From: a virus
Lineage: Duplodnaviria; Caudoviricetes
Length of the DNA: 61,446 bases
IMG/VR virus record: IMGVR_UViG_3300036761_000480
Location: 1-61,446 of that record
Reading direction: 5' to 3' (one strand)
In this document: positions 7,475-60,626 of the stretch, one piece after another
How the letters are laid out: every line of letters begins with the position of its first letter
Position numbering within the stretch: position 1 is the stretch's first letter
The notes under the pieces: generated by a model
Seen by the model: the letters and a program-made list of their open reading frames with translations, nothing else
Database searches by the model: none
What the model was told of the DNA's origin: nothing
Translations under genes and position numbers: made by a program

Positions 7475-9298
7475 TTAACATATTAATGGTAATTTTCCAT
7501 CTGGACAAGTTCCATAATTTATTGGGATACCATTCGCCACTCCATATATTGTTGAGTATGTTTGAGATGAGTCAACATAATATCCATTATCTGCCAATTG
7601 AGTCAATGCTGAATCTTTATACCAAGTAGTATTTTCAATTCCGAGAGTCATATATTCTGTCTTATCAAAATATATTGTTTCTGTAGTGCCAGTAAGATCC
7701 GCACATGTTTTACAAAGATAAATTTTATCATCATCAAGCGGATCTCGTCCTGTTCCTGCATTATAACAGAAGTCAATTGAAATTGGCCCGTCATCTATAA
7801 AATATCCATATATTATAACATTATCGTTTTTAAATGTATATGTGAGTAATGGATTAGTCGTTATCATATCAGTGTTATCGATTGTAAATCGATCTGCTGT
7901 ATAATATGACCATCCAAGAAATACCGTAGTATTCGTTGGCGTGCCTATAACATCAACGGTTGACAAAGATGGACGAATTACTTCAAATGGAATTGTCCAA
8001 TGACCACCAAGTTCATCAAGTAGATAACCAGTAGAATAGCTTGTTAAATATATTGGAATAAATGTAACATGCAAATTGCCACAATTAATTTCTGGCCACC
8101 TATACACACTACCATCACTATCTATTACATATACATCATATATTCCTCCAGGTAATCCCGTAAATCTCTGTGTGGTTCTATCCGTCGGAGCGGTTAATGT
8201 AACGCCATTATCAATACTATATTGATATGGCGGAATTCCTCCAGTGATAGTGATTGAAATTCTATCTAGGTCGCAGTCAGCATCTGCATCTATAATTACT
8301 AATGGACATGGCCCACATTCAGGGAAACTTATAACAATACCATCAACGATATATACGACCATCGGCGGCCACCAGTCTACTCCCAGTTCTCCTATTGTAA
8401 TATAATACCCTGTTGGAATTAATTCACAAGAAGTTGATCCAGCTGGGCCAGCATATACGTCTTGTCCAATTGTTAAACTTGAAGCAAATCCTCCAATAGC
8501 AGATCCTTCACCCACACATAATGCATCACATGCCTCATCTTGCGAACTAATAAAATTATAACCAAGAGAATCGGTATAGAAAAGAACATATTCTTTCAAT
8601 CCTTCTGGTCTTGCACAACTTGCCGACGGTGTTATTGACGGTGTTGGTGAAGGTGTTTCACTTGGCGTTATTGAAGGTGTTTCACTTGGCGTTATACTTG
8701 GCGTTATACTTGGTGTTTCACTTGGCGTTATTGAAGGTGTTTCACTTGGCGTTATTGAAGGTGTTTCACTTGGTGTTGGCGAAGGTGTTTCACTTGGCGT
8801 TATTGAAGGCGTTTCACTTGGTGTTGGCGAAGGTGTTTCACTTGGCGTTATTGAAGGCGTTTCACTTGGCGTTATACTTGGAGATTCGATTGGCGTTGCG
8901 CTTGGTGTTGGCGAAGGTGTTTCACTTGGCGTTATACTTGGAGTTAAACTTGGTGTTAATGTTGGCGTTGGCGTTATTGTTAACGATGGTGTTACTGTTG
9001 GCGTTATCGATGGCGATGGAACTATGTTAACTAAAGTAAATGTAAAATCAAACTCACAATTGTAAACTATAGTATCTATTGTTGGCGTTAAATTGCACGC
9101 TTCTAAACCAATCGTACATCCTCTCGCATCAGTAATTGTTAATATATAATCTCCTGATGGAATATTCTCAAAACTATATTCCCCATATGCCCAATGCTCA
9201 TTTGTTGCGATTATAGTATCAGGATCAAGCGTAGTGGCGAGAGTGACCGTTATCGGAAAATCTCCATTAGTTATTGCATATGTTATTATTTCTGCCAT
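7475..9298 (-). CDS. Virion structural protein with SprB-like repeats and a Thr-Pro-Ser linker
   Basis: FENIPSGDYILTITDARGC and ITGGIPPYQYSIDNG..FTGLPGGIYDVYVIDSDG resemble SprB repeats; long TPSETPSI repeat. Confidence 0.75.
   Translation of the reverse strand: MAEIITYAITNGDFPITVTLATTLDPDTIIATNEHWAYGEYSFENIPSGDYILTITDARGCTIGLEACNLTPTIDTIVYNCEFDFTFTLVNIVPSPSITPTVTPSLTITPTPTLTPSLTPSITPSETPSPTPSATPIESPSITPSETPSITPSETPSPTPSETPSITPSETPSPTPSETPSITPSETPSITPSETPSITPSITPSETPSITPSETPSPTPSITPSASCARPEGLKEYVLFYTDSLGYNFISSQDEACDALCVGEGSAIGGFASSLTIGQDVYAGPAGSTSCELIPTGYYITIGELGVDWWPPMVVYIVDGIVISFPECGPCPLVIIDADADCDLDRISITITGGIPPYQYSIDNGVTLTAPTDRTTQRFTGLPGGIYDVYVIDSDGSVYRWPEINCGNLHVTFIPIYLTSYSTGYLLDELGGHWTIPFEVIRPSLSTVDVIGTPTNTTVFLGWSYYTADRFTIDNTDMITTNPLLTYTFKNDNVIIYGYFIDDGPISIDFCYNAGTGRDPLDDDKIYLCKTCADLTGTTETIYFDKTEYMTLGIENTTWYKDSALTQLADNGYYVDSSQTYSTIYGVANGIPINYGTCPDGKLPLIC
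8620..9020 (-). repeat. Coding tandem repeat (TPSE/TPSI/TPSP)n
   Basis: Recurrent gaaggtgtttcacttggcgttatt units. Confidence 0.95.
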
Positions 9299-21478: not shown

Positions 21479-24400
21479 TTAACAATTAACAACATCATTT
21501 ACAAGTCCGCTTGCAGTTATTTGTAATGCGTACCAAATACCATTTCTAATTGCTCTATACCAATTTCCATCACCTATGAAATTATCCGTACAATCCGAAT
21601 CATTATATATGTAGTCGCCAGGAACTGGTGGATAATGGCCCTCAGGCATATATAATGTTCCCGTTGGTGATCCTCCAGCGCAAGCTAAAATTGACGAACC
21701 GTAACTACTAATTAAATAAACCCCATATGCTACAAATGCGGGTGGTGTAGGAGTAGTCGGCGGTGCAATAGGATTGCCTTCACAATCTACACATGCGCTA
21801 TGACCAAACGAATCTAATGATACAATGCCAATATTCATATAACCTAAATCTATATAATCCTGTTCAGTTGTTGTAGATCCAGCAACTATATATGCGTAAT
21901 TTGGATCACAATTGACTCCTCCCCATACAAGATTTCCTGAACTAAGATATCCTGAAAGAGATTGTGCATAATAATAATTACCTATATAACCTTCAACACA
22001 TTTAACTAATCTATAATAGAATGCTTCAGGTGGATAAGGAGTAGGTGTTACTATTGGAGTTGCCGTTACTGTTACTGTTGGAGTAGGTGGTATTGGGCTT
22101 GGCGTTGGCGTTATATCAGGAATCGGGCAACCGACTACGCCAGTTGAAAATGCCCCTTTTGGCCCAAAATATTTAATTAACAAATCTAATGCTGAATTTC
22201 CGGGTCTTAATCCAAAATAAAATAAGAAAGGAGATGATAATACTTGATGTCGCCCGTCATAATTTTGAACAGTTTGAAATATAAATGTTTCTCTATCTCC
22301 CTTTACATATTCATATGGTTGCAATGTCCATGTTTTATTAACAACAACATATATAAGACCTTTTTGTGGATCCTTTATTGATCCTAATGTGACATATAAC
22401 CACAAATCACCTTCTATATATTGTAATGCCCCATTTGGCGATTCATCAGCTGGATAGTAACTAATTATTTCAAACCGTTCTAATATATCTACAGTACTGC
22501 CAGTTACACTAAATGTACTATGGTCTATTGTCATTGGCATTAAAAGATACTCTTCCTCACCATCAGGCATTAAATAATTTGTTCTTCCTATTCTTAAAAA
22601 CAAAGAATCATAAATTGTGGTTTCGGTTACTCCGCTTATAGAGAACATTCTTTGTAGTGGCATTGAGGCAATTGCTGTCTTGTCCCACGCTTGATCATCG
22701 GATATAGGCCCGTAACCTCCAAACCCTGTACCTCCTTTATCCCATAAATAAAATGGAACTGTTTGTGAATAATCACCTAATCTATTATTAAGACACATTC
22801 TAATATGAGCCCCATTAGAATCGAATTTTAAATCTATTGGTGTTGGGCCGAAATCATTACCCGATTTAAAATATTCAGCAAAATTTATATCTTCAGGATC
22901 TAAATATTCATCATTATACATATAATAATGAGGGCTATCTAAATCAAAAGCCTCAATACCTGCCTCACAATTAATTGATATCAATTGGGTAATATCTCCA
23001 TCAAAAACTTTTATTCTATGATTATATGCTGGGCCGTCAAAAAAATCATTAATATCAAAATTCGAATTAGTAATATCCATCCTATAGTTTATTGCATACT
23101 CTACAATATTTGCCGCGTCCTGATAAGATGTTGATCCGATATCCCTGATTACCGAGCATGCTGGGTCAACCGCAGGATCATAACATATTTCATATAAAAA
23201 TTCATCCCTAACTCCCACATCATAAAAGGTGGTAGGGTGTAGAATTTCCTTGGCGCCGCTGGTTGGATTCGTTTGTCCTATAAACCCACTTGCTAAATTA
23301 TAGGGCGTGCTTCTATAATAAAAATTCTTATCCAATATATTAAAGAAAACAAGTTCTCGTGGATATCTGGTTCCTCTTTGATTTAGATCATATATATCTT
23401 CATTATCCCATCGAACTCTTTTATCAAATTTGAAAAAATATAATAAACCATTTAACCAATTATCTATAAAAGAATAATTTACAACACCTCCACAAAACGA
23501 TAATCCGATTCTTTTTCGTCTATACCATTCTTGTATAGCTGGAGTGTTATTACTTCTACCTCTTATTACTGGAATTATAGTGAACTCACCATCTCTAAAT
23601 TCAGAATACCCAGATTTGGTTTTTCTATCATATATTCCTCTCCCTATTCTACGGTAAGGCACATATCTCGGCATTCTCAGAGCTCCTGTTCGACCAATTA
23701 CTGTTGATAACAAATTAACGCGAATCGCATCTGGAAGAATAGATTCCATATATGTCGGATCTTCCAAATATACTCCACTACTAGGATGAAGAGGTAAATA
23801 AGTACTTCCATATGTTGTTCCAGATGACCAAATATATGACATTCTTATACCCTCATTATATGTCTTGTCATATTTAGTACACCCTTCTTCAATTTCAGTA
23901 GTGGTTGTGCCTGTTAATATTACCTCTTTTGCGTATGCCCTATCGTATATTCTTATAACAACATATAGATAAGTATCAACAAATGGATCGGAATTATTGA
24001 TACCTGTTAATTCTTCAAACACATCAGAAGGATATGTCACTTGCCAATTTCCGCCATAATCAACAAATGTTATATCCTCGGAACTCTGGATCGGCGACTG
24101 AAGATTTGAAACATACTCACTTATAATTGTTTGCCTGGTTACATTTGCCCACCCGTATATTTCAACCACATATCTTGGCACTGTACCTAATCCATCGATA
24201 TATATCAAATTAGTTACATCTGATAACATATCAAGAGCTGAAAAATCTAATGCTGGAGCTCCTACACATGGACTATCAGGATCTCTTGCATATTCTCCAG
24301 GAAAGAAATTAGAGGTTTCCGTTACTCCAGTCAAAAATGTTGAATCTGTTATAGTGTTACGCCAGATGTCATCTGTTGGCGGGAGATTATTCGGAACAAC

Positions 24401-26347: not shown

Positions 26348-26381
26348 CTCATATGTGAACTATTCTTATAAATAGAAACTT

Positions 26382-26503
26382 TTCAGTTTTCCATAAGATA
26401 CGTGAACTACCCTCTAACTAAAATTTATGGGCTTCATGAGTCATCACTCCCACTAATGTGGGCAGTTCGTCATGATTTTCTTGTCTATGTTCCACAGACA
26501 AAT
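26382..26503 (-). ncRNA. omegaRNA of tnpB (scaffold about 26503-26402 overlapping the 3' end of tnpB; guide GTATCTTATGGAAAACTGAA)
   Basis: Ends ...GGGTAGTTCAC like IS200/605 right ends; GAACTGCCC can pair with GGGTAGTTC; hairpins TTGTCTG/TAGACAA and CCCAC/GTGGG; true 5' end unknown. Confidence 0.75.
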
Positions 26504-27581
26504 AATTTCTTAAAGCAAAATTCTTAATATTTATAGCGGCGTTAAAATCTCTATCATGTACAGTACCACAACCATTACATATCCATTCTCTGTCTTTCAA
26601 TTCGAGTTCTTTATTAATATTGCCACAAATATGACAAGTTTTACTTGATGGTTCGAATCTTCCAATTTGTAAAATATTTTTACCATACCATTCTGATTTA
26701 TATTTCAACATATCAACAAACATTCCCCATCCAACATCTGAAATTGATTGAGATAGGTTATGATTTTGTAACATACCCTTAATATTAAGATTTTCAGTGG
26801 CAACACTATCGTGGCTCTTGATTAGTTGCGTTGAAATTTTATTTAAATAATCTTTGCGTTGATTAGTAACATATTCATACAAAATATTTAATCTATGTTT
26901 TGTTCGTTTACCTTTATATTTTGAATATTTACTCTGAATATATTTTAATCTTGATTCTGATTTTTTAAAAAATTTGGGATTATCGAACCTCAATCCATCA
27001 GAAGTAACTAAAAATGATTTAATACCCAAATCAATTCCAATGGTATTATTAATGGTTATATTGGATTTAATCGGAGTTACTATATTATTTTCAACTAATA
27101 TCGACACAAAATATTTACCCGTCGGTGTTTTACTAATAGTGGCTTGTTTGATGATTCCTTTAAATACTCTATGTAATATAATTTTAATACCTTTTTTAAA
27201 TTTAGGAATGATCAATTTATTATTATCAAAATCCACAATAACATTTTGTGGTATGTTAAAAGATTGTCTTGCTGATTTCTTTTTAAAATTTGGGAAATCT
27301 GCTTGTCCCTTAAAAAATTTAGTAAAAGCGTTATCCAAATGCGTTATTGATTGTTGCAATGATTGTGAGTTAATTTCTTTAAGCCAAGCACATTCTTTTT
27401 TTAAATCAGGAAGTTGTTTCATTAAATCAAAACATCCTAAATTAACTTTGTTGCCGGCATATGCGGTTTGCTTCGTTTCTAAAGCGAGATTATATAAAAA
27501 TCTACAACTACCAATATGTTTGTTTATTAGTTCTTGTTGAGTCCTAGTCGGTTCGATTCGATATTTATACGATTTAATCAT
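26418..27581 (-). CDS. tnpB: IS200/IS605-family RNA-guided endonuclease TnpB (no tnpA in window)
   Basis: N-terminal KSYKYRIEPT HTH; RuvC triad GIDLG / ATENLN / DRDFNAAINI; Zn finger CHICG..CNGCG. Confidence 0.95.
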   Translation of the reverse strand: MIKSYKYRIEPTRTQQELINKHIGSCRFLYNLALETKQTAYAGNKVNLGCFDLMKQLPDLKKECAWLKEINSQSLQQSITHLDNAFTKFFKGQADFPNFKKKSARQSFNIPQNVIVDFDNNKLIIPKFKKGIKIILHRVFKGIIKQATISKTPTGKYFVSILVENNIVTPIKSNITINNTIGIDLGIKSFLVTSDGLRFDNPKFFKKSESRLKYIQSKYSKYKGKRTKHRLNILYEYVTNQRKDYLNKISTQLIKSHDSVATENLNIKGMLQNHNLSQSISDVGWGMFVDMLKYKSEWYGKNILQIGRFEPSSKTCHICGNINKELELKDREWICNGCGTVHDRDFNAAINIKNFALRNYLSVEHRQENHDELPTLVGVMTHEAHKF

Positions 27582-27632
27582 CGAATATAAATATCGTGAT
27601 TTTATAGAAAAATCATTTTTATTTAAAAATAA

Positions 27633-38101: not shown

Positions 38102-39115
38102 CTATTCGGTATCTTCCTCACGTATAATATTTGCGTTTATTATTTCTGATATAGAAACACCTAATTTCTCACTAATATATTCCCCAGCAATTTTTTTATA
38201 TTCTTCGATAGATTTTTTTTCTTCGGCCTCGTTCTTTGCCTTCATAAAATCATGAGCTGTTATTAATATTTTACCGTCTTCATAACCAAGTCCAGTGAGA
38301 TGATTTTTCATTACACTAATTTTAGTTCTCGTTGCTATTTTAATTTTTCTACCATCTTTCGTGATGGATATCTTAGTTATGCCTGCTCCTTTCTGATTTC
38401 CGAATAAAAATACAAACGTTGAATTTAACCATACTGCATTTCCCCCTTTAGCCATAATTCTTGGCTGTCCAAATGGCCCATCTGGTAATTCAACCCATGC
38501 CTGATTGGACATAATCATTGTGTTCGTATATTTTCTATCTGACCTACGTGATCCAGTAATTCTCTGGTTTAGTCCCATTCCTATTTTATCCGATAATACC
38601 GATGCGGTCGCTTGTTTTCCACCCTTGCCGTCAAATGTCATTTTACATGGAACAGAACCCACAGAATCCCATAAAAAACATAAATCATAATCTATCTCTC
38701 CCTTATCTTGAGCATCAAGTAAGCTAGTAATATAATCTGTAATTTGTTCAACATAATCAAAATGATTATTAAAAAGAAAAAATCCGTCCCAATTAAAACT
38801 TCCATCTTCTTTAACCACCTTTTCACATTGAAATCCTAACAGTTTTGCATGTTCAAATGTCCATTTTTGTTCTGTAATAAGAAAAACAGGTAATATATTT
38901 TTTCTCTGTGCGTCTATTGCCGTTTTAATTAGAGCAACGGTTTTTCCTGTATCACTATGTCCTAATAACATATTTAAATGCCCCATAGCGGGGCCTGGAA
39001 TGCCGCAAGCATCCAAAAAAGCGTCCCCCAAATCAAAATATCTGTCAGGCTTAAATGATGCCTCTTCTGAATATTTCTTTTTTATTGCTGAAAAATCTTG
39101 TTTTTTAATTGCCAT
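38102..39115 (-). CDS. recA: RecA/UvsX-like recombinase
   Basis: Walker A GHSDTGKT, ITEQK, Walker B FLWDSVGS, MSNQ, KGGNA, VMKNH. Confidence 0.88.
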   Translation of the reverse strand: MAIKKQDFSAIKKKYSEEASFKPDRYFDLGDAFLDACGIPGPAMGHLNMLLGHSDTGKTVALIKTAIDAQRKNILPVFLITEQKWTFEHAKLLGFQCEKVVKEDGSFNWDGFFLFNNHFDYVEQITDYITSLLDAQDKGEIDYDLCFLWDSVGSVPCKMTFDGKGGKQATASVLSDKIGMGLNQRITGSRRSDRKYTNTMIMSNQAWVELPDGPFGQPRIMAKGGNAVWLNSTFVFLFGNQKGAGITKISITKDGRKIKIATRTKISVMKNHLTGLGYEDGKILITAHDFMKAKNEAEEKKSIEEYKKIAGEYISEKLGVSISEIINANIIREEDTE

Positions 39116-39140
39116 ATCTATTATTATAAAAAAATTATTA

Positions 39141-39173
39141 AATCGCCCACACCTTTAATAGATGTGGGCGATT
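39141..39173 (-). terminator. Hairpin (terminator or RNA processing site) between ssb and recA
   Basis: AATCGCCCACA..TGTGGGCGATT 11-bp inverted repeat followed by T-rich tract on the minus strand. Confidence 0.7.
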
Positions 39174-39180
39174 AGTTAGA

Positions 39181-40026
39181 TTAAAAAGGTAAATCTGCCT
39201 CGTCATCGGGTTCTGCCTCCGCTTGTGGATCTTCAGGAACTTTACCTGGTACTGATCCAGCAATTGTTTCTTCTGCTGTTGCCGCTGAAACCCATTTTTT
39301 AAGATCATTATCCCATTTTGGGGTTTCCCCTTGGGCGACCATATCGAGATACTCCTCTGGTTTCTTAGCATAAACATCTGACCATACAAGAAGATCATTA
39401 AGCCATTTCTGTGCCGTCTCCTCATTTTCATGTAATGGACTAGGATCTTCTGGAATGATAGAATTGATTACTGTATACACTCTGCCTGTGCCTGATGTGG
39501 TAAGGGATAATGAAAGAATCAAATCACGACCTTTAACGGGATCGGTGATGTCACCCTTATTTTTCCAAATCGGGTAGATTTTATCAAAAACGCCTTCCCC
39601 TTTGGCGTTATTCTTAAATCTCCAGAATTTTGGGCCGTCTTGCTCATGATCTCTGTCAATTACTTTTACAACAAAGAATTTACGTGAGCGATAGGATTTC
39701 GCTAGTTCTTTGTCAGATTCGACGCCAGTAGCTTCAAGGCTGTCTTTAACTTCGTTCAAGGGAGAACGTTTATGTTCCTGCTTCGGGTCCCAAAGTTTAA
39801 CCCATTTTCCATCCACCTGTACTTCGTGGAAAAATACCTCTACAAACGGCGTCGATCCATCTTTTGGAGATAAGATGCGTACCCGTCTTTCCTCACTTTC
39901 AGAACCTTTCGGTAATACGGTGGTAAAATACTTCTTCATTCGTTCCTCTTGAGAGGCGAATTTGTTGCCGCCTGCGGCTTTCTTGTTTTTTTCGTACTGT
40001 TCTTGTACTGCTTCAAATGTTCCCAT
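39181..40026 (-). CDS. Single-stranded DNA-binding protein, T4 gp32-like
   Basis: RVRIL..PFVEVFFH; FVVKVIDRD..GPKFWRF; DITDPVKGRDL; acidic tail DDEADLPF. Confidence 0.82.
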   Translation of the reverse strand: MGTFEAVQEQYEKNKKAAGGNKFASQEERMKKYFTTVLPKGSESEERRVRILSPKDGSTPFVEVFFHEVQVDGKWVKLWDPKQEHKRSPLNEVKDSLEATGVESDKELAKSYRSRKFFVVKVIDRDHEQDGPKFWRFKNNAKGEGVFDKIYPIWKNKGDITDPVKGRDLILSLSLTTSGTGRVYTVINSIIPEDPSPLHENEETAQKWLNDLLVWSDVYAKKPEEYLDMVAQGETPKWDNDLKKWVSAATAEETIAGSVPGKVPEDPQAEAEPDDEADLPF

Positions 40027-40063
40027 AATTTAATTTAATTTAGTTAATAAAATTTTATGTAAT

Positions 40064-40095
40064 CAAATATAAGTAAAAAATATATAATTACCAAA
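40064..40095 (-). promoter_or_regulatory. Consensus Bacteroidota sigmaA promoter for the ssb/replication operon
   Basis: TTTG-N20-TATATTTG. Confidence 0.75.
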
Positions 40096-40123
40096 TAACA
40101 AATAAGATTTTTTGAAAATAAAT

Positions 40124-40162
40124 AAAAATCGGCTTCGGAAGATATGTTCCTCCAAAGCCGAT
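40124..40162 (-). terminator. Strong intrinsic terminator
   Basis: Minus strand ATCGGCTTTGGAGGA-ACATA-TCTTCCGAAGCCGAT-TTTT: 15-bp stem (2 GU pairs) plus U tract. Confidence 0.8.
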
Positions 40163-40221
40163 AATGTTAATTTAATATAAAGTCCAATCATTTTAAAAAA
40201 TCCGTTGCCGCGTGCGGCGTA

Positions 40222-40344
40222 TTAGAAAATAAGTTAATATAGTGAACTACCCACGAATTAGAAATCCGTGAGCTTCATGAGTCATCACTCCCACTAATGT
40301 AGGTAGTTCGTCATGATTTTCTTGTCTGTGTTCCCCAGACAAAT
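40222..40344 (-). ncRNA. Stand-alone (ORF-less) TnpB omegaRNA: scaffold 40344-40242, putative guide TATATTAACTTATTTTCTAA
   Basis: 69/73-nt identity (40272-40344 vs 26431-26503) plus identical 3'-terminal GGGTAGTTCAC with the tnpB 3' end; no tnpB ORF at this site. Confidence 0.8.
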
Positions 40345-40376
40345 TAAAGATACATAATTATTTTGAAATTTTCAAG
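40345..40376 (-). promoter_or_regulatory. Promoter immediately upstream of the stand-alone omegaRNA
   Basis: CTTG-N20-TATCTTTA (also reads TTGAAA-N17-TATCTT); same TATGTATCTTTA core as the promoter at 37409-37420. Confidence 0.65.
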
Positions 40377-40378
40377 TA

Positions 40379-41056
40379 TTAAAATGTGTTTTGATCGATA
40401 TTTGGGTTAAATGACTTCATTACATCATATTTACCATAATTTTCGACATCTCCTTTAGTAAGGACGTATTCATTTTTTCCTGTTTTTTCCATTTCGCCTC
40501 GTTTTTCGGCAAAAAAATCGTCAGGCTTTTTATTAAATGGATACGAATCCAATGATCTCATCTCAAGTTTCTCCATTGGAGTTTTTGGCTTAACCTGTTG
40601 AATTTGATCTCCTAATTGATCAATTTTTGCTAATACATTATCCATTTCACCTAATCTGGCTTCTAAATCATTCAACTTTGTAAAAACATCATCTAATTTT
40701 TGTGTGGCACCCGTATCTTGGCCTTGTGTATCATCTAGTTGTTTCTTAATACTCTTAGTCATATTAACCAAATCTGTAATATCAAGTTCTTCGGTTGTGT
40801 CGTCTGCAGACGGATCTGTATCACCCAAATCTGTACCTTTCTCTTCTGCTTCAGGTGGTAAATCTTCTGCTGGCGGTATTGCTGGGTCTGCTGGATCTGC
40901 TGGTGGTGCCGCAGCTGCTGGATCTGCTGGTGGTGCCGCAGCTGCTGGATCTGCTGGCGGTGGCGGTAACGGAGGTTCTTGTTCTGATAATAGTCTCTCA
41001 GTATATTTGTTTATAGCATTGAAACGCTTTAGTTCTTCCTGTAATAAGTTTTCCAT
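40379..41056 (-). CDS. Hypothetical acidic protein with Pro/Ala-rich repeat and coiled coil
   Basis: PPADPAAAA repeats; heptad-like LDDVFTKLNDLEARLGEMDNVLAKIDQL. Confidence 0.8.
   Translation of the reverse strand: MENLLQEELKRFNAINKYTERLLSEQEPPLPPPPADPAAAAPPADPAAAAPPADPADPAIPPAEDLPPEAEEKGTDLGDTDPSADDTTEELDITDLVNMTKSIKKQLDDTQGQDTGATQKLDDVFTKLNDLEARLGEMDNVLAKIDQLGDQIQQVKPKTPMEKLEMRSLDSYPFNKKPDDFFAEKRGEMEKTGKNEYVLTKGDVENYGKYDVMKSFNPNIDQNTF
40878..40975 (-). repeat. 27-nt tandem coding repeat (PPADPAAAA)
   Basis: gctggatctgctggtggtgccgcagct twice, plus partial copies. Confidence 0.9.
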
Positions 41057-41067
41057 ATTTTTATATA

Positions 41068-41265
41068 TTAATCTTGTAATAATTGTCTTCCGTCTTCGGT
41101 TATGTATTTTTTATTAATCCGTTCAACTAGACCATCTTTTGTTCTAATCACATAACATTCGCCAGTTGCTATATCACAAATGGTTTCTTCTGTCCCATCT
41201 TCGGAAACATCTTTGATGACTGTTTTATTCAAAAAATCTTCTATTGCTTTGTCTCTATTAGTCAT
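41068..41265 (-). CDS. Hypothetical protein (65 aa)
   Basis: ORF with TATTTAT motif upstream; CDIATGEC. Confidence 0.7.
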   Translation of the reverse strand: MTNRDKAIEDFLNKTVIKDVSEDGTEETICDIATGECYVIRTKDGLVERINKKYITEDGRQLLQD

Positions 41266-41304
41266 AATTCAATTTTTATATAAATATCTAACAATTTACT
41301 AATT

Positions 41305-44300
41305 TCATTCTGTTAATTTGAAATAAACAACATCTCCATCATTTAACTTCAATTTTAGCATTAACGATTTTGACAATCCGACACCAACACCCGATATGCC
41401 TGGCCCAACACTAATAGGTCCATTATATCTATTACCACTATTACTCATATTTGTGGTTATAATTTCGGATTTTTCAATTTTAGTGTTTGGATTTATAAAT
41501 ATTGTTTTATGAAAATGATTAATAAGATAATCTGGAGTTATTCTGCCTAAATTAAATTTAGTTACATAAAAATCTTGTGATTTACTTAGATCTTTAATAT
41601 CATTCCATATTATTGGATGTGGATTATCAATACTTGCAGGCGTTAGATTAGAAAGTATATTCATAGTAGTACCTGTGTCAATTGGATATTTAGTTCCATC
41701 CATAAGAACGGCAATTGCCCTTAACCATTGAACATTATCATTATGATGTGATATTTTTTGGATATATTTCTCGCCATCAAATCCATTATATGGTATTCCG
41801 TATTCTGTTACTCCCGCTTCTTTAATGTGCTTTTCACCACTTGGCGCCTTACTTTTATCTCCCATATCATATGTAAAGGCGCCAGCATCACTACTTATTG
41901 TCTCTTCAGTACCCGTATTACCTGTTAATTGCATTTCTTTAACTTTAACATCGGCTCTTTTTACCATTCTATCAAAAAGTGATCGATAACTAGCCAAAAA
42001 TGAATCTGTTGGATTTGGTAAAGATTGCAATGGAATTCTTGATCCTTTAAATGAGGTATCAATACCTGTTGTTCTAATAGTATGAGTTACTTCGGTAATC
42101 CAATATGATCCTTTAAATAATGGAATGTTTTTTAAATAAAAATACATTGTTGGTTGTATCATAACATTACCCATTGCCGATACTTGACATTGATATGATG
42201 ATTGTCTATATATGTCGAATAGTCCAACATCAATTTGTGCTGTGCTAGACCCACTTTCGCTTCGTCCTAATCTATCCAATACTATAAACGATTCTGATGT
42301 GTTTTTTATTGATGATTGGTCTAATTCCACTCCTTTAAAAATAGATTGATTTTGATCACCAAAACTTACTTCAAATGCAACAACTTTATTTGATTTCGAA
42401 AAATCCATTCTGGTAAAGACATCGGACGCAATAATAATAGGATTATTATTTACATCTCCAATATTAAATCCGTCATTTTTATATTTGTATTTAAAATTAA
42501 TATCAGATAATTCCAAATGTTTTGAAGTTGGCCCAATATATTGCAATATAATCTTTGGAGAAGAATCCACGTAATCAATATCAAGAAATGCCCCAAACAT
42601 ATTTTCAGCAACAGTTTTAGATGGCATTACTTTTTTCGTATTTGAATAATTTGTACCATAAAAATTAACATATGCGGGTAATACTCTTATATCAAACCCA
42701 GTATCTTGAACTAAAAGACTGACCGCACTAAATAAATTAATTTTTTCATTACCCTTGGCTGTTAATCTCATTAATTTCTCCATATCAATATAAACCGAAC
42801 TACCAATATCCCTATTCGCTTTATCCAAGAATAAAAATTCTTCCATTAATGTTTTTTGGCCTATTGAATTTCCAGATGTCCATTTATCATTGAATGATTT
42901 AAACAAGTTATATATTTCTAATTTAATAATATCGTCACTATACCCTCTTTTTTTATTTACGGCCGCTACTTTTTCGCTTTTCAAATCTATTTGTATTCTA
43001 TGTATTAATTGATCTAAAAATAATTTTAATCTTTTATCTGGACCGCTAACGCTCATTGAATCAATCTTAGTTGGCGACGGCAATGTAATATTGTCTTTTA
43101 TATATGAGACAAATCTTTCTTTTGTTGGTGAGTCTCCGTTGGCTCTCAATCCAGCATACATATAAATTAAAGGCCTAAATTGTTTTATGTTTTCTTCACT
43201 TAGTTCAATGTTGTTTGTTAAAAAGAAATCTTGATAATATCCGTCTATATCTTCACCCAAATAAAGTTTTATATTATCAGTATTGCCAGCAATTTGTGAA
43301 GAATTAAATTCACTTATGGTAGATCCAGTACTGGTAAATTGGTCTAAAATATAATTATCAACTTCTCTAGGATTGGCTAATGAAATTCTTACAAGGCTAT
43401 CAGTTGATAATATGTTAGATGTTATACTAGATAAATTAGCCGATTGTTTTTCTTTAATTTTAGTTAATAATCCATTAATATCTGTTGGATCTGTATTGTC
43501 TTTTGCCACTGAAACAATATCTCTTAATATATCTTGAAATTTTGAATATTTTACATCATACGGTTTATATGGAATTTCTTCATTAAGTCTCTCGCTTGCA
43601 AAATCCAAAAATGCCTGTTCAAACACATCCAAAATATCTGGCTTAAATGTCGCAATCAAATCAATTACTTTTCTATAATTTGTCGACAACGAATATGTAC
43701 TATTTGTTAATTTGAAATATTCATCCGATGTTGGAAATGTATATCCCGAATAGTAAACATATCCTAACGAATATTCAGTTCCGACATTCCATAAAATTCT
43801 AAAATTTTCTTGTTCGGCCTCTGCAAAATCACTTACATTTATACTATTATACCCATTACATGGTAATAATGTATATCTATTGTCTGTAGTTGTAAATTTT
43901 GATTCATCGATAAATGTCGACCATGCATATCCGCCGCTAGCTACTTGATAATATATTTTAGTTATATTACTGGAAATTGTTTGAGAATATCCAGTTGGTC
44001 CAGATATGAAATCAAAAAATGCGTAACCATTAGCTATTTGATGAAATACAGTATCATAAAATGGGTGAATTCCCACATCATTTAAATTTGATCTATCTAT
44101 TGTATCAACTCCTGGATCTGTACTACCTGTATAAACTCTATTTAGATCATTATCAAAATATAAATCTCCATCAATTGGATTAGTTATATTATTAATAATA
44201 TCGACGCTATCATTAATATATCTTTTATATCTATGATAAATTGATCCCCATTTTAACATCAAATGATATGGAATGTAATGACTCGCGCCGATTTCTCTAA

Positions 44301-54674: not shown

Positions 54675-55404
54675 AAAATTCCGCCCCAAATCCAACTTCG
54701 ACTTGGATCATCTCCTTTGAGGGGGTTTCTACTGTTTGAATTAAATCTAATTTGGGTCTATGATCGTTAACATATTTTTTAAAATCATGCGAATCTGATA
54801 TTGGCATTTTACTTTCAATAAAATTATGTATTTCCATAAGGTCTCTATTCCCATTAATAGATTTTATCATCATTTCAAGCCGTTTTGTAATTACGGGAGC
54901 AACACTCTGACCATTCCAACTGGTTTTTATTTTCTCAATTTCATCTTCTTGTTTTTGCGTTAAAAATTTAAACGTAATATTAATTCCGCTTTTTTTCAAA
55001 AAAAACGGATATTCACCATTTGAATCTTCAACTAATGTGAAATCTTCCATTTTTACTACAGATAAATCTAAAACAATTGAAAATTTTTCATTTGTTTTTG
55101 GATCAATTAATGTCATATTATACTCGGATCCAAATGCAGTATTTCTTAAAAATATTAATATTGCCCGTTTATCTTCTTCAACAATGTCCTCAAATAATAA
55201 ATCCTTATCTAATATTTTTCTTTTTAATAATTCAGCAACAACGCCACTAGACGCTATTAAATTTGGTGACGATAAAATATTTTCATCTGCGGCAGTTAAA
55301 TACGCTACTCTAACAGATTTTTTCTTATTGGCATAATATATACCTCTACTTGGTAATTCAACAACATCGTATGCAATTGTTGGATCGATTTTAAACTCTT
55401 CCAT
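54652..55404 (-). CDS. Baseplate hub assembly / tail assembly chaperone (T4 gp26-like)
   Basis: VELPSRG.YY, YLTAADENIL, DKRAILIFLRNTAFGSEY, ends GAEFFRP; lies between tube and tape measure. Confidence 0.8.
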   Translation of the reverse strand: MEEFKIDPTIAYDVVELPSRGIYYANKKKSVRVAYLTAADENILSSPNLIASSGVVAELLKRKILDKDLLFEDIVEEDKRAILIFLRNTAFGSEYNMTLIDPKTNEKFSIVLDLSVVKMEDFTLVEDSNGEYPFFLKKSGINITFKFLTQKQEDEIEKIKTSWNGQSVAPVITKRLEMMIKSINGNRDLMEIHNFIESKMPISDSHDFKKYVNDHRPKLDLIQTVETPSKEMIQVEVGFGAEFFRPFYGL

Positions 55405-56971: not shown

Positions 56972-58534
56972 ATGACTATGGAAAAAAGTAAAAAAGAATT
57001 AAAAATTTTTTTATTAGAGAATAATAAAAGTGGATATAAAACAAAAGAAAAATATATTAATACTAATTTTTCAATATTTTTTTCAAATTTAAAATCTTTT
57101 ATTGTAAAAAATAAATTAGAAAGAGTTCAATTTAAAGAACAATTATTTTCATATCTACATGATATAAAAAAAATTCCACAATGTCCAATATGTAGAAAAC
57201 CATTAATTTTTAAAAAATCATTTAAGGAAGGCTACGGAACATATTGTTCTGTTAATTGTGCTAACAAATCAGAAAAACATATTAATAATATTAAATGGAC
57301 AAATATCAAAAAATATGGGGGAGTTTCACCTGCTAATTCTCCTGATATAAGAAAAAAAATGTCAGATACTAATTTTAAAAATTATGGAGTCTTAAATTTT
57401 TTTGAGAAAAAAGATGTTATACAAAAAAAAATAAATGAGAAATATGGAAACCCAATTATAACAAAAACTAATCATTTTAAAAAAATAATGAAAGAAAAAT
57501 ACGAAAAAAAATATGAAAATGAAAAAATAATAAAAAATGATAGTGATATTATATATTATTGTAAAACTTGTGGAGAATCTTCAACTCATGAATATAATTC
57601 ATTTAACTATAGACAAAGAAATAATATTTCACTATGCAAAATATGCGTTCCGCCATATCAATCTATGATTGAAAAAGAGCTGGAAAATTTTTTAGTTGAA
57701 AATGAATATGATTTTAAAAGGCATGACAGAATTACAATTACTCCTAAAGAAATTGATTTTTTTATAACAGATAAAAAAATTGGAATAGAATTAAATGGAT
57801 TATACTATCATAGTGAAAAATTCATACCAGATAAAAATTACCATAGAAATAAATGGATATCTTCTCAAGAAGAAGGAATTCATTTATTTCAAATATGGGA
57901 AGATGAATGGAAATTTAAAAAAGAAATTGTTCAGAATATAATAAAAAACAGAATATCTGGAACTAATAACAAAATATGGGGAAGGAAATGTGAAATAAAA
58001 ATAATTGATAATAATACCTATAGATTTTTTGTCGAAAAATATCATATACAAGGATACGCCCCAGCAAAAATTAGGATAGGATTATTCTTTAAAAATGAAC
58101 TGATACAAATAATGTCATTTTCGGGCAATAGAAAATCAATGGGTAGTACAAAAAAAGAAGGAGAATATGAAATGATAAGATTATGTACAAAATTAGGAAT
58201 AAATGTAATTGGTGGATCTGAAAAAATACTATCTTATTTTGAAAAAACGTTTAAACCAATTAAAATTACTAGTTATTGTGATATTCGATATTTTACAGGA
58301 AAAACATATTATAAAATGGGATTTAACCTTAAAGAAATAACAAAACCAAATTATTTCTATTTAAAGTCTAACGAAGTTAAAAGGCATCAACGATTTAACT
58401 TCAGAAAAGATAAGTTAGTTAAAATGGGATTTTCGAAATTTAAGACAGAACATGAAATAATGAAAGAACTAGGATATTTAAGAATTTGGGATTGTGGTAA
58501 TAAAAAATTTATTAAAACTTACGAAAACATTTGA
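56972..58534 (+). CDS. Hef-like homing endonuclease (KYG repeats, PD-(D/E)xK nuclease, C-terminal GNAT/Mom-like domain)
   Basis: EIDFFI..IGIELNGLYYHSE; HIQGY..YEMIRLC..VIGGSEK..SYCDIRY..RIWDCG; the only credible plus-strand gene. Confidence 0.8.
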   Translation: MTMEKSKKELKIFLLENNKSGYKTKEKYINTNFSIFFSNLKSFIVKNKLERVQFKEQLFSYLHDIKKIPQCPICRKPLIFKKSFKEGYGTYCSVNCANKSEKHINNIKWTNIKKYGGVSPANSPDIRKKMSDTNFKNYGVLNFFEKKDVIQKKINEKYGNPIITKTNHFKKIMKEKYEKKYENEKIIKNDSDIIYYCKTCGESSTHEYNSFNYRQRNNISLCKICVPPYQSMIEKELENFLVENEYDFKRHDRITITPKEIDFFITDKKIGIELNGLYYHSEKFIPDKNYHRNKWISSQEEGIHLFQIWEDEWKFKKEIVQNIIKNRISGTNNKIWGRKCEIKIIDNNTYRFFVEKYHIQGYAPAKIRIGLFFKNELIQIMSFSGNRKSMGSTKKEGEYEMIRLCTKLGINVIGGSEKILSYFEKTFKPIKITSYCDIRYFTGKTYYKMGFNLKEITKPNYFYLKSNEVKRHQRFNFRKDKLVKMGFSKFKTEHEIMKELGYLRIWDCGNKKFIKTYENI

Positions 58535-58621: not shown

Positions 58622-58653
58622 TTTGACTTTTTCGAAAAAATTTTGTATATTTA
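58622..58653 (+). promoter_or_regulatory. Bacteroidota-type promoter pointing into a non-coding region
   Basis: TTTG-N20-TATATTTA. Confidence 0.55.
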
Positions 58654-58841: not shown

Positions 58842-60626
58842 TTATAATATCATTTCAAATTTCATTGTTCCACAATCCCAAATTCTATCGAATCCTCTTT
58901 CTTGCATTATTTCCCATTCTGTTTTATCTTTAGAAAATCCTTCTTTTACTAACTTATCTTTTCTAAATGTAAACCTATGAAATCTATGAAGAAAATCTTT
59001 TGTACTTACATACCAGTAATTGGGATCAGATTGATGAATGAATTTAAATCCACATTTATAATATATTGTTTCTTCAGGAATAATACCAGACCATCTTGAA
59101 TCAGCATATGTAATAATTTTAAATGGTTGATACTCTTTTATAAAATATTTTAGTAATCGTGAAAATCCACCAATAACATTTGTATCTAATTTACTCGCAA
59201 ACCTAAGGAGTTCGTATTCATTATTCATTGAGGTATTTCCTAATGATTTTCTTTTCATGCCAAAGGTCATAACGCTGACTAATTCATTGTTAAAAAACAA
59301 TCCTGTTCTAATTTTGTCAACTAAATCTCCTTGTAAATGATTCTTTTCTAAAAATATTTTTGATTCCGATTTAGATATTTCTTTTATTATACATTTTCGA
59401 GCGAAAATTTTATTTTCGGTTATGTTAAGGATGTTTTTAATTCTGGAAAAAACAATATTAGGGGATTTTTTAATTTCATCTTCAAAAATATGAATTAATT
59501 TTATTCCTATAACATTTAATTTTTTTGTTTTGTCGATATGATAATTTTTATCTTTTTTTCCATATATTTCAGAATGATAATAATTACCATTTATTTCAAA
59601 ACCAATATTATATGACGGCAAAACATAATCAACTTCTTTTCTATTTAAAAGTTTTTTATCATTTTTTAAATAATTTATATTGTTATCATCAAAAATGGAT
59701 TCCATGAAAATGTTTAAAGAATTATCTGAGGTTATTGGATAGCATTTTCTACATATTATATCATATTCTCGAAATACTTGTGTATGAGTAAATTCATTTC
59801 CACATTTTTTACATTTAATTGTTGCGTACTTGTCATCAACATAATCAATAAATATAAATCCACGATCTTCAATTCTTTTTATAACGGAATTATACCTTTG
59901 TTTTATAACTTTTTCTTTATACTCATCAGAAGAAACATAAAGTCCATCAAATAATTCTTTTTGTTTATTTATTGCTTTATCCTGATTTGATTTAATCTGT
60001 AATGGAAATTCAACTCCATAATGATCAAAATGTGTTTTTTTAGATTTATTTTGAAATTCTTCCAATTTTAAATGATGACCTCCATATCTTTCGTTTAAAG
60101 TTTCATTAAATTTATCTCTATTATTATAATTGGCGTCTCCATATTTAATAAATTTAGTTTCGTTTCTTTTTTTTATAATTTCTTTTTGTTGTTCTTCAGT
60201 TATTTTTGAAATTGAATCAAAAAATTTTTTTCTTATTTCAGGAACTTCCATATGATTTTTAGTACCATATCTTTTAATTTTAGTCTGGTCTGATTTGGTT
60301 TTAAAATCATCTGTTTGGAAATAATAAAATCCATTATTTTTTAATTTAGACGATTCGATTGATTTTTTACATCTTTCTTGGGAATTTTTTTTATTCCATA
60401 TTAATCTACATTCATCAGAACAAATTTTATTTTGTTGTTTTTTTCTAATTTCAAATTCTTTCTCACAATTTAAACATTTTCTTTTTTCATACAAATCAAC
60501 TTGTTTCGGTTTGCCCTTAATTCCAGCAGATACATAACAAGTTTGATTACAATATTTTTTATTTCTCTGTTTAAAGGGTATTGTAAATTCTTTTTTACAA
60601 TGTTCGCAAATTTTTATTATATTCAT
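58842..60626 (-). CDS. Hef-like homing endonuclease, paralog of 56972-58534 (probable start MNIIKICEHC at 60626)
   Basis: Two CxxC..YC/IC Zn repeats; KYG repeats; EVDYVL..IGFEINGNYYHSE; HLQG..YELLRFA..VIGGFSRL..TYADSRW..RIWDCG. The track's longer start would cross the sheath terminator. Confidence 0.8.
   Translation of the reverse strand: MNIIKICEHCKKEFTIPFKQRNKKYCNQTCYVSAGIKGKPKQVDLYEKRKCLNCEKEFEIRKKQQNKICSDECRLIWNKKNSQERCKKSIESSKLKNNGFYYFQTDDFKTKSDQTKIKRYGTKNHMEVPEIRKKFFDSISKITEEQQKEIIKKRNETKFIKYGDANYNNRDKFNETLNERYGGHHLKLEEFQNKSKKTHFDHYGVEFPLQIKSNQDKAINKQKELFDGLYVSSDEYKEKVIKQRYNSVIKRIEDRGFIFIDYVDDKYATIKCKKCGNEFTHTQVFREYDIICRKCYPITSDNSLNIFMESIFDDNNINYLKNDKKLLNRKEVDYVLPSYNIGFEINGNYYHSEIYGKKDKNYHIDKTKKLNVIGIKLIHIFEDEIKKSPNIVFSRIKNILNITENKIFARKCIIKEISKSESKIFLEKNHLQGDLVDKIRTGLFFNNELVSVMTFGMKRKSLGNTSMNNEYELLRFASKLDTNVIGGFSRLLKYFIKEYQPFKIITYADSRWSGIIPEETIYYKCGFKFIHQSDPNYWYVSTKDFLHRFHRFTFRKDKLVKEGFSKDKTEWEIMQERGFDRIWDCGTMKFEMIL

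What the first reader, a model, noticed from the sequence alone, without database searches (positions are those of the whole stretch)
40222..40376. Stand-alone, promoter-driven TnpB omegaRNA with a different guide, 14 kb from tnpB (candidate trans-acting guide system)
Seen: 40242-40344 copies only the omegaRNA-scaffold part of the tnpB 3' end (69/73 nt core identity plus identical GGGTAGTTCAC end). Homology begins at the base right after a promoter -7/-10 box (TATCTTTA, 40345-40352), and a strong terminator follows at about 40124-40162. Three of the four core substitutions fall in stems and keep pairing (two GU to Watson-Crick, one CG to UG); the fourth is in a loop. The terminal hairpin CUCACGGAUU/AAUUCGUGGG is fully paired, better than in the tnpB-linked copy. 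The guide differs (TATATTAACTTATTTTCTAA vs GTATCTTATGGAAAACTGAA). Inference: one phage TnpB served by separate guide genes, i.e. a minimal non-autonomous homing unit or a domesticated multi-guide system. Caveat: three substitutions are also synonymous in the old reading frame, so the copy probably derives from a sister tnpB by deletion.
Basis: partly seen in the sequence, partly recalled or inferred. Interest (0 to 1): 0.85.

Follow-up and report, generated by a model that had tools for sequence, protein, structure and literature searches.

The report
Nuclease-less guide RNA mini-transposon in phage
A large phage carries, 14 kb from its RNA-guided nuclease gene (tnpB), a 136-base leftover of a second copy of the same transposon that keeps only the transposon's promoter and its complete guide-RNA scaffold, a known kind of non-autonomous element that has not, as far as I could find, been described in phages.

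Summary
Window 40242-40344 (- strand) is a full 103-nt copy of the omegaRNA scaffold at the tnpB 3' end: 90% over 83 nt, covariance-model scores 118 vs 116 bits, and no third copy in the window.

The promoter reading needs correcting. The upstream box carries a signature of this IS family's own left-end (LE) promoter, found 9 of 9 times just before tnpB in 80 TnpB loci. The unit is therefore an internally deleted (tnpB-less) second IS copy: LE promoter fused to the right-end scaffold. The predicted transcription start falls on the first base of stem 1.

Codon-pattern divergence and an ancestral-type stop show it derives from a sister tnpB. The "guide" is native flanking DNA.

Other phage records with this TnpB clade (G001, G032, G029, G020/G021) also hold tnpB-less scaffolds. 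Most have an LE hairpin (PATE-like), and three have the promoter directly upstream.

The window also holds a 13-nt LE/RE footprint, so decay to scars of any size happens here.

Expression, TnpB loading and a target are all unshown. A domesticated multi-guide system is not supported.

I read it as a new variant of a known kind, of moderate interest.

The parts
40242..40344 (-). Stand-alone omegaRNA scaffold (103 nt): stem 1 with a GGAAC loop, stems 2 and 3, a terminal hairpin, and a GUAGUUCAC 3' end. It equals the right end of an IS605-family TnpB element without its tnpB.
   Evidence: 118.3 bits. It forms 32 of 33 consensus pairs. MFE -34.3 kcal/mol, z = -4.4.
40222..40241 (-). Guide position: the 20 nt of native flank directly 3' of the scaffold end.
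   Evidence: It differs from the tnpB-linked guide. It resembles the same intergenic stretch of L007 and L009/L010. No second match in the window beyond chance.
40345..40377 (-). IS left-end-type promoter: TTG at 40375-40373, a 20-nt spacer, and the -7 box TATCTTTA at 40352-40345. The predicted start is G40340, the first base of stem 1.
   Evidence: The signature AAATAAT-N2-4-GTATnTnT is unique in the window and lies 20-45 nt before tnpB in 9 of 9 hits in 80 TnpB loci. Alignment A6. The position of the -7 box relative to the start is taken from PMC9723704.
40247..40342 (-). Relic of the sister tnpB reading frame: 31 codons, ending in the TAG inside GGGTAGTTCAC.
   Evidence: tblastn gives 89% identity to TnpB residues 360-387.
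40195..40218 (-). Small GC hairpin plus T-run. It is native to the locus and conserved in L007 and L009/L010.
   Evidence: read by eye. One search gives BLAST matches to L007, L009 and L010.
40128..40162 (-). Strong intrinsic-terminator-like hairpin (15 pairs) with a T-run, downstream of the unit.
26418..27581 (-). Intact tnpB (387 aa).
   Evidence: Pfam HTH_OrfB_IS605, OrfB_IS605 and Cas12f1-like_TNB. E = 9e-61 to ISDra2 TnpB chains, with the aligned acidic and Cys positions conserved.
26402..26503 (-). tnpB-linked omegaRNA scaffold. Its terminal hairpin is weakened and it has a 1-nt deletion relative to the stand-alone copy and L087.
26382..26401 (-). Guide of the tnpB-linked element. It equals native DNA that in element-free relatives directly follows TTTAT.
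   Evidence: Empty sites in L100, L101 and L103.
27582..27632 (-). Short, hairpin-less left end and promoter region of the tnpB-bearing element. The outer boundary is uncertain.
   Evidence: Homology to the left end of the G001 element.
26355..26367 (-). 13-nt footprint (it ends in TAGTTCAC) lying between a TTTAT and the start region of the 1622-aa gene. I read it as an almost completely deleted third IS copy.
   Evidence: It is absent from L100 and L103. TAGTTCAC occurs only 3 times in the window, all on the - strand: the two scaffold ends and this place.

Best explanation
The unit at 40242-40377 is an internally deleted, tnpB-less copy of a second IS605-family TnpB element. About 33 nt of the element's own left-end promoter are joined to the complete right-end omegaRNA scaffold, followed by native flank that serves as the guide.

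Shown: homology, the complete structure, the promoter signature, origin from a sister tnpB, and the native-flank guide.

Inferred mechanism:
1. The scaffold plus guide is transcribed. This happens either from the fused promoter (predicted start on the first base of stem 1) or by read-through from the 225-aa gene, because no terminator separates them.
2. The intact TnpB encoded 14 kb away (or another copy in the unsampled 80% of the genome) loads this RNA in trans. The scaffold is about 90% identical to its own.
3. The complex cuts element-free alleles of this locus (a T-W-W-A-T-type motif followed by the guide sequence) in co-infecting relatives.
4. Recombinational repair then copies or retains the mini-element.

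On this reading it is a selfish, guide-only parasite of TnpB. It works like a PATE-borne omegaRNA, but it lacks the left-end hairpin.
For: Identity:
-.
- The family structure has 33 pairs, 15 of them with compensatory changes across 7 sequences. The stand-alone copy forms 32 of 33, against 30-33 for the tnpB-linked members.
- Its two private scaffold substitutions fall at a G.U position of the terminal hairpin (pair 97-103) and of the candidate GAACURCC/GGUAGUUC long-range helix (my reading of A3). Both would read A-U.

Geometry compared with ISDra2:
- ISDra2 has a 116-nt functional scaffold, and its pseudoknot joins -5..-3 to -105..-103 (PMC10097598 passages).
- Here the invariant GGAAC loop lies at -93..-89 and GUUC at -6..-3, and homology begins 11 nt 5' of the GAA.

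Promoter:
- TTG-N20-TATCTTTA.
- The -7 box spans -12..-5 in Flavobacterium (PMC9723704), which puts the start at G40340.
- The LE signature is unique in the window. It hits 9 of 9 times just upstream of tnpB in 80 TnpB loci, against 5 unrelated hits in 1.03 Mb of control loci.

Parallels elsewhere:
- The tnpB-less scaffolds G001a, G032_14k and G032_23k have an LE hairpin, the same promoter type 10-15 nt before the scaffold, and covarying stem 2 (CGGAG/CUCCG vs CAAGU/ACUUG).

Nuclease and precedent:
- TnpB is intact.
- TnpB trims the 5' end of longer transcripts (PMC10278001 passages).
- PATEs 'often encode omegaRNAs' that must be used in trans (Meers preprint passages).
Against: - There is no RNA evidence, and no element-free allele carrying this guide sequence was found (see Tried and rejected).
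- The copy looks young. There is no difference to L090 across 39764-40444, and divergence from the resident copy is mostly synonymous in the old frame. Intactness is therefore weak evidence of selection.
- Deletion products of arbitrary size exist: a 13-nt footprint in this window, a 41-nt LE/RE hybrid in G032, and half-decayed scaffolds in G001. A remnant that happens to keep the whole scaffold is expected now and then.
- It is absent from 160 related loci and from 4 large related genomes.
- There is no left-end hairpin, and no Y1 transposase in the window or in G001. Transposase-driven mobility is therefore unlikely.
- A near-identical -7 box with a similar spacer also precedes an ordinary phage gene at 37438-37409. 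A resident-promoter origin is not fully excluded.
Confidence: 0.55

Rival explanations
1. It is an inert scar. A second IS copy lost its tnpB by deletion, and what remains has no selected RNA function. It may persist simply because it is young. It may also persist because any insert between the adjacent motif and the target protects the locus from TnpB complexes carrying that guide, so precise loss is punished but the content of the insert does not matter.
For: - Scars of 13 nt (26355-26367) and 41 nt (L321) show that remnants of any size persist.
- The G001 copies at 23722-23820 and 163644-163752 have degenerate 5' halves.
- There is no divergence from L090 in this region.
- Divergence from the resident copy has a coding-type pattern.
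- The unit is absent from all less-close relatives.
Against: - The deletion ends place the predicted start on the first base of stem 1, and nothing of the scaffold is lost.
- The same promoter-scaffold fusion recurs in other phages, with covariation among the tnpB-less copies.
- Both private scaffold changes would turn a G.U into an A-U, one in a consensus pair and one in a candidate long-range helix.
Confidence: 0.3
2. It is a domesticated trans guide. The phage keeps separate promoter-driven omegaRNA genes so that one TnpB serves several guides for the phage's own benefit, for example to cut competing phages. That would be a step towards a CRISPR-like split of nuclease and guide genes.
For: - Several tnpB-less scaffolds per genome occur in G032 (5 not next to a TNB domain, against 2 tnpB) and in G001 (3 against 1).
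- The cis omegaRNA of the resident tnpB has a weakened terminal hairpin.
Against: - The guide is the local flank, as in any IS. None of the 22 exact guide matches in viral contigs lies in a related locus.
- Most tnpB-less copies elsewhere keep an LE hairpin and sit right after TTAT, the anatomy of mobile mini-IS rather than of host genes.
- The unit is confined to one lineage.
Confidence: 0.08
3. It is a structured 3' untranslated region or terminator element of the upstream 225-aa gene, with the resemblance to the omegaRNA being only historical.
For: It lies between the stop codon (40379) and the terminators, on the coding strand.
Against: Relatives manage without it, with spacers of 114-2220 nt in 69 loci. 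The locus has its own conserved hairpin and terminator.
Confidence: 0.03

Closest known systems
PATEs (palindrome-associated transposable elements) of IS200/IS605 that encode omegaRNAs. Source: Meers et al. preprint 10.1101/2023.03.14.532601, passages seen.
   Same: No protein gene. It keeps the right end with a full omegaRNA. It must borrow TnpB in trans. The guide is the flank.
   Different: There is no left-end hairpin (and reading); only the left-end promoter is kept and it is fused directly to the scaffold. It sits in a phage genome. No Y1 transposase is seen. The class B elements of G001 and G032, by contrast, do have the left-end hairpin and look like true PATEs.
tnpB-only IS605-family elements with a 3'-overlapping omegaRNA (ISDra2 type). 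Sources: PMC10097598 passages and PDB 8bf8/8exa matches.
   Same: The same scaffold family and the same end, GUAGUUCAC followed by the guide. The pseudoknot-capable loop and tail have the same geometry. The adjacent motif sits at the left junction.
   Different: The nuclease gene is deleted, so the RNA needs its own start instead of being processed from the tnpB mRNA (PMC10278001).
TldR guide-RNA loci (nuclease-dead TnpB repressors). Source: 10.1101/2023.11.30.569447; abstract and passages seen.
   Same: A TnpB-family protein used with a guide whose role is no longer transposon maintenance.
   Different: Here the TnpB keeps its aligned catalytic residues, and the guide is the local flank rather than a promoter of another gene.
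TranC, transposon-CRISPR intermediates with split guide RNAs. Recalled from memory; only the PDB names 'LaTranC' were seen.
   Same: Physical separation of the guide gene from the nuclease gene.
   Different: There is no repeat array and no sign of a split scaffold. Here the whole omegaRNA is simply left behind by a deletion.

Membership tests
TnpB omegaRNA (right-end guide RNA of IS200/IS605-family elements) | Sequence homology to the 3' end or right end of a tnpB gene of the same clade | tested here: met
   90% over 83 nt and 87% over 111 nt. Covariance-model score 118.3 bits, equal to the tnpB-linked members.
TnpB omegaRNA (right-end guide RNA of IS200/IS605-family elements) | Conserved secondary structure supported by covariation | tested here: met
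   33 pairs, 15 with compensatory changes across 7 sequences. The stand-alone copy forms 32 of 33.
TnpB omegaRNA (right-end guide RNA of IS200/IS605-family elements) | Pseudoknot between the 3' tail next to the guide and a 5' loop, as in ISDra2 | tested here: inconclusive
   The GGAAC loop (-93..-89) and GUUC (-6..-3) are complementary and invariant in 7 of 7 sequences, so there is no covariation to test. The geometry matches the description in PMC10097598.
TnpB omegaRNA (right-end guide RNA of IS200/IS605-family elements) | The scaffold ends at the element boundary and the next ~16-20 nt are native target DNA | tested here: met
   Exact for the tnpB-linked copy, from empty sites. For the stand-alone copy, the flank resembles the intergenic DNA of L007 and L009/L010 (by eye).
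TnpB omegaRNA (right-end guide RNA of IS200/IS605-family elements) | Transcribed and bound by TnpB | not testable with these tools
   No run on record as RNA was listed.
PATE (non-autonomous IS200/IS605 derivative) | No protein-coding gene between the ends | tested here: met
   Only a 31-codon relic of the tnpB C-terminus remains.
PATE (non-autonomous IS200/IS605 derivative) | Subterminal hairpins at both the left and right ends | tested here: not met
   The right-end hairpin is present. The family's left-end hairpin motif is absent from the window. The 225-aa gene's stop codon lies just 5' of the 33-nt promoter segment, 26 nt upstream of the -7 box.
PATE (non-autonomous IS200/IS605 derivative) | Left junction directly after the adjacent motif (TTAT in 20 of 20 left ends, TTTAT in 17 of 20) | tested here: inconclusive
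   The left flank here ends in TTTTAAT. That fits only a looser T-W-W-A-T reading.
PATE (non-autonomous IS200/IS605 derivative) | A Y1 TnpA available to mobilise it | tested here: not met
   PF01797 has no match in the window or in G001. Both are fragments (20% and 66% complete).
Domesticated guide system (TldR-like or CRISPR-like) | The guide matches a target other than its own insertion site | tested here: not met
   Window matches are at chance level. None of the 22 viral-contig matches lies in a related locus. Host genomes were not searched with the guide.
Domesticated guide system (TldR-like or CRISPR-like) | Nuclease-dead effector (for TldR) | tested here: not met
   The aligned acidic residues and the Cys pairs are conserved against ISDra2 TnpB. 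Which residues are catalytic is recalled.
Bacteroidota sigma-A-type promoter | -7 box TAnnTTTG at -12..-5 (PMC9723704) with an upstream element about 20 nt away (the -33 element is recalled) | tested here: inconclusive
   TATCTTTA matches 7 of 8 positions, with a TTG 20 nt upstream. The same form precedes ORFs at 37438 and 40094. The loose pattern is only mildly enriched overall: 24 found against 14.9 expected. The host is unknown.

The most novel reading that the evidence does not exclude
Phages carrying this TnpB clade maintain families of promoter-driven, nuclease-less omegaRNA genes: several per genome, each with a different guide. Together they turn one or two TnpB genes into a multi-guide weapon, or gene drive, against co-infecting relatives. 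That would be a natural intermediate between one-guide transposon nucleases and CRISPR-like systems in which the guide genes are separate from the nuclease gene. On this reading the window's unit is the youngest observed birth of such a gene.
Probability: 0.12. Interest if true: 0.85.

Novelty: new variant of a known kind. Interest (0 to 1): 0.5.

Why it matters
If the RNA is made and loaded, this is a minimal natural example of a guide RNA gene uncoupled from its nuclease gene and driven by the transposon's own promoter, in a virus.

It would show how guide-only parasites of TnpB arise by a single deletion. Together with the PATE-like copies in other phages, it would show that phage genomes are an arena for such elements.

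It also gives a compact test system of 136 nt plus one 387-aa protein. With it one could measure trans-loading, competition between cis and trans omegaRNAs, and RNA-guided homing between phages.

If it is inert, it still documents the decay path of TnpB elements in phages: full copy, then promoter plus scaffold, then a 13-nt footprint.

Tried and rejected
- Rfam: no family matched at gathering threshold over the whole window. Only sub-threshold chance-level matches appeared over 40100-40420.
- Phage GenBank collection: no match to 39000-41500. The tnpB region matched only distant tnpB genes at 65-72%.
- Cellular genomes: the 20-nt scaffold core gave 0 matches in genome contigs. The TnpB protein found only a 36% relative. 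No host or bacterial source was identified.
- RNA evidence: no RNA holder was listed among 24 runs.
- Laying contigs of 4 DNA runs: the contigs that skip the intergenic region are all well diverged from the window (for example 101 other letters over 613 laid bases). One short near-identical contig carries the unit. No near-identical element-free allele was seen. Parts without cover are not evidence.
- Guide search: the 17-nt guide gave 22 viral-contig matches, none followed by the locus's hairpin or preceded by a T-W-W-A-T motif. The 16-nt guide with up to 3 mismatches is at chance level in the window (12 found against 11 expected). The tnpB-linked guide is likewise at chance.
- tRNA scan: none found.
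- The 18.5-bit covariance-model hit at 54941-55016 was read and dismissed as noise.
- I considered that the promoter was a resident phage promoter captured by chance. I now rank this below an IS left-end origin because, but the similar box at 37438 keeps it open.
- I considered homology between the unit's upstream 33 nt and the window's own tnpB left end. It is only weak.
- The exact left boundary and adjacent motif of the window's tnpB element could not be fixed.
- Supplementary files of the Meers and Nety papers (lists of PATEs and omegaRNAs) were not opened. They may hold phage cases.
- Claims that phage-borne tnpB-less omegaRNA units are not in print rest only on searches.

Full report
WHAT THE WINDOW IS

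The window is one IMG/VR virus record of 61,446 bp. CheckV estimates it as 20% complete, so it is a fragment of a phage of roughly 300 kb. Nearly all long ORFs lie on the - strand.

One ORF (26418-27581, -) is an intact TnpB. It has the Pfam domains HTH_OrfB_IS605, OrfB_IS605 and Cas12f1-like_TNB. It matches ISDra2 TnpB chains at E = 9e-61, and the aligned acidic and cysteine positions are conserved. Which residues are catalytic is recalled, not taken from a call.

THE OBSERVATION

The 3' end of tnpB and the stretch 40242-40344 form a direct repeat:
- 90% identity over 83 nt.
- 87% over 111 nt.
- An identical GGGTAGTTCAC end.

These are 4 differences in the 73-nt core, a fully paired terminal hairpin in the stand-alone copy against two A.A mismatches in the tnpB-linked one, a different 20-nt flank, the TATCTTTA box at 40352-40345, and a strong terminator at 40162-40128.

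A near-identical variant phage contig (L090) carries the same unit, with no difference between 39764 and 40444. The unit is therefore real DNA and not an assembly artefact.

IT IS A COMPLETE omegaRNA SCAFFOLD

Searching a 20-nt invariant core gave one other viral contig (G001) and 8 metagenome stretches. These were L090, five tnpB-linked relatives (two of them the G001 contig) and one chance match.

Seven distinct scaffolds align into a structure of 33 pairs, and 15 of those pairs show compensatory changes. The stand-alone copy forms 32 of 33 pairs, within the range of 30-33 seen in the tnpB-linked members. Its two private scaffold changes fall at G.U positions, one in the terminal hairpin and one in the candidate long-range helix, and both would read A-U.

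The covariance model R1 scores the stand-alone copy at 118.3 bits and the tnpB-linked copy at 115.9 bits. It finds nothing else in the window.

Passages of the ISDra2 structure paper (PMC10097598) describe a 116-nt functional scaffold. Its pseudoknot joins -5..-3 to -105..-103, and everything further 5' is dispensable. Here:
- The invariant GGAAC loop of stem 1 lies at -93..-89.
- GUUC lies at -6..-3.
- Homology begins 11 nt 5' of the GAA, which is the same offset as the mature ISDra2 5' end.

Nothing of the minimal scaffold is missing, and almost nothing extra is kept.

WHERE IT CAME FROM

In the old reading frame the 26 shared codons differ by 5 synonymous and 2 non-synonymous codons (my reading). 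The stand-alone copy shares the CCTAC of stem 3 with the G001 element. It also shares an ORF end in the TAG inside GGGTAGTTCAC. The resident tnpB instead has a 1-nt deletion and an earlier stop.

So the unit descends from a sister tnpB that was still coding while most of the divergence built up. The deletion came late.

THE LOCUS

The unit lies between the stop codon of a 225-aa gene (40379) and a small conserved GC hairpin. A strong terminator and a gp32-like gene follow.

Of the 80 related loci fetched, 69 keep this gene pair, with spacers of 114-2220 nt. None of them has the scaffold, and the same is true of 80 loci around the baseplate gene (0 hits in 160 loci, 1.03 Mb). Four large related genomes also have none.

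The closest relative, L007 (91% in gp32), has a small ORF at this spot. L009 and L010 have other spacer DNA. All three share the GC hairpin, and their DNA resembles the unit's 'guide'. The guide is therefore native flank.

THE TRANSPOSON ENDS

Element-free relatives (L100, L101, L103) read TTTAT directly followed by the tnpB-linked guide sequence. This fixes the right boundary at GTTCAC and suggests TTTAT as the adjacent motif.

Twenty left ends with the family's hairpin, taken from TnpB loci and tnpB-less elements, all lie a few bases after TTAT (TTTAT in 17 of 20).

The window's own tnpB element has a short, hairpin-less left end like that of G001. Its outer boundary could not be fixed.

THE PROMOTER IS THE TRANSPOSON'S OWN

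I built a TnpB alignment. It retrieved 118 stretches in viral contigs that encode a relative, of which 80 loci were kept.

In many of these loci the ~45 nt before the tnpB start follow one pattern:
- a TTG,
- an A/T-rich spacer containing ...CAAAATAAT...,
- a box of the form GTATCTTTG,
- then 4 nt and the start codon.

The Flavobacterium -7 box spans -12..-5 (PMC9723704). The predicted start therefore falls on the A of the ATG, which implies a leaderless tnpB mRNA.

The stand-alone unit has the same string upstream (...TTTCAAAATAATTATGTATCTTTA). The signature AAATAAT-N2-4-GTATnTnT behaves as follows:
- It occurs once in the window, at the stand-alone unit.
- It occurs 9 times in the 80 TnpB loci, each time 20-45 nt before tnpB on the right strand.
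- It occurs 5 times in 1.03 Mb of control loci, in unrelated contexts.

In the unit, the first base of stem 1 (G40340) stands where the tnpB start codon would be. The unit is therefore best described as left-end promoter plus right-end scaffold, meaning an internal deletion of tnpB.

One caveat remains. A very similar box and spacer also precede an ordinary gene at 37438-37409. The loose promoter pattern is only mildly enriched in the window (24 found against 14.9 expected).

THE SAME THING ELSEWHERE

R1 was run over whole records.

G001 (218 kb, one tnpB by two searches) has three further tnpB-less scaffold hits. One is preceded by TTG-N19-TATCTTTA and, further upstream, by the left-end hairpin.

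In 30 more records there were 32 strong hits of at least 75 bits. The four hits in the two records with two strong hits each (G008, G017) all lie at the end of a tnpB gene. There were also 17 weak hits.

In the five records checked for the TNB domain, 9 of 11 weak hits are not next to a tnpB: G032 five, G029 one, G021 one, G020 two. The weak hits of G033, G034 and G027 were not checked.

Most of the tnpB-less copies keep a left-end hairpin right after TTTAT and measure about 215-320 nt. That is the anatomy of PATEs. One copy (G032_20k) has neither hairpin nor promoter, and one is a 41-nt left/right hybrid hairpin.

Three copies (G001a, G032_14k, G032_23k) have the promoter 10-15 nt before the scaffold. 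Stem 2 also covaries between tnpB-less copies, which argues that such RNAs are kept for their structure.

Passages of the Meers preprint say that PATEs 'often encode omegaRNAs' that must be used by TnpB in trans. The kind is therefore known in bacteria. My four literature searches found no phage case. Supplements were not seen.

DECAY IS ALSO VISIBLE HERE

Forty bases downstream of the tnpB element lies a 13-nt insert that ends in TAGTTCAC. It sits between a TTTAT and the start region of the 1622-aa gene, and it is absent from L100 and L103. I read it as a third IS copy reduced to a footprint.

Remnants of any size can therefore persist. This is the main argument for the rival reading that the 136-nt unit is just a young scar.

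VERDICT

Identity as a tnpB-less deletion derivative of a second IS copy: about 0.9.

That it is expressed and used in trans as a selfish guide-only element: about 0.5. This rests on the exact promoter-scaffold fusion, the complete structure, its position on the coding strand upstream of the terminators, an intact TnpB, and the parallels in other phages. Against it stand the unit's youth, the lack of RNA data and the lack of a found target.

A domesticated multi-guide system is possible but unsupported: the guide is the local flank, and the unit is confined to one lineage.

It is not a PATE in the strict sense, because it has no left-end hairpin. I file it as a new variant of a known kind.

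Noticed in passing
window 26355-26367 (-): A 13-nt insert ending in TAGTTCAC sits between a TTTAT and the start region of the 1622-aa gene. It is absent from relatives L100 and L103. It looks like the footprint of a third, almost wholly deleted IS copy.
   Followed up: partly
window 26382-26412 and the empty sites in L100/L101/L103: The tnpB element is inserted inside a conserved promoter-like box (T-run, then ATGTATCTTAT) upstream of the 1622-aa gene. Its guide is therefore that box, and the gene's upstream T-run is now separated from it by 1.2 kb.
   Followed up: partly
window 26402-26440 (-): The resident tnpB has a 1-nt deletion relative to the stand-alone copy and L087. This gives an earlier stop and a terminal omegaRNA hairpin with two A.A mismatches. 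Whether its cis guide RNA is impaired is unknown.
   Followed up: partly
L201 950-1599 (G001:C1:23171-23820): Between two oppositely oriented genes lies a cluster on one strand. It holds a left-end hairpin, a promoter, a tnpB-less scaffold, and 200 nt further on a second scaffold whose 5' half is AT-rich and degenerate. The terminal hairpin of that second scaffold is better paired than the one in G001's tnpB-linked copy.
   Followed up: partly
L321 (G032:C1:33950-34850), - strand: A 41-nt hybrid in which the 5' arm of a left-end hairpin is joined to the 3' arm of a right-end hairpin, ending in GGGTAGTTCAC and lying directly after TTTAT plus 5 nt. It is a minimal left/right recombination product.
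   Followed up: no
L210-L229 and other TnpB loci, about 45 nt before tnpB: The left-end promoter places the predicted transcription start on the A of the tnpB start codon, which implies leaderless tnpB mRNAs in this clade.
   Followed up: no
L007 1785-4000: The closest relative has, at the very spot of the unit, a 37-codon ORF with a hydrophobic stretch. After the terminators it has two extra ORFs (372 and 273 aa) that the window lacks. The spacer between the 225-aa gene and gp32 is a hotspot of 114-2220 nt across 69 loci.
   Followed up: no
window 1166-1919, 8601-9000, 11278-12242: Long runs of 12-nt periodic repeats lie inside the giant - strand ORFs (37 to 75 copies per family). They probably encode four-residue repeats of structural proteins.
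   Followed up: no
window 58387-58510 / 58857-58980 and 58623-58653: Two convergent ORFs share a 124-nt inverted repeat (76% complementary) at their 3' ends. Between them lies a promoter-like TTG-N20-TATATTTA followed by a GC-rich stretch with no ORF called and no tRNA found.
   Followed up: no
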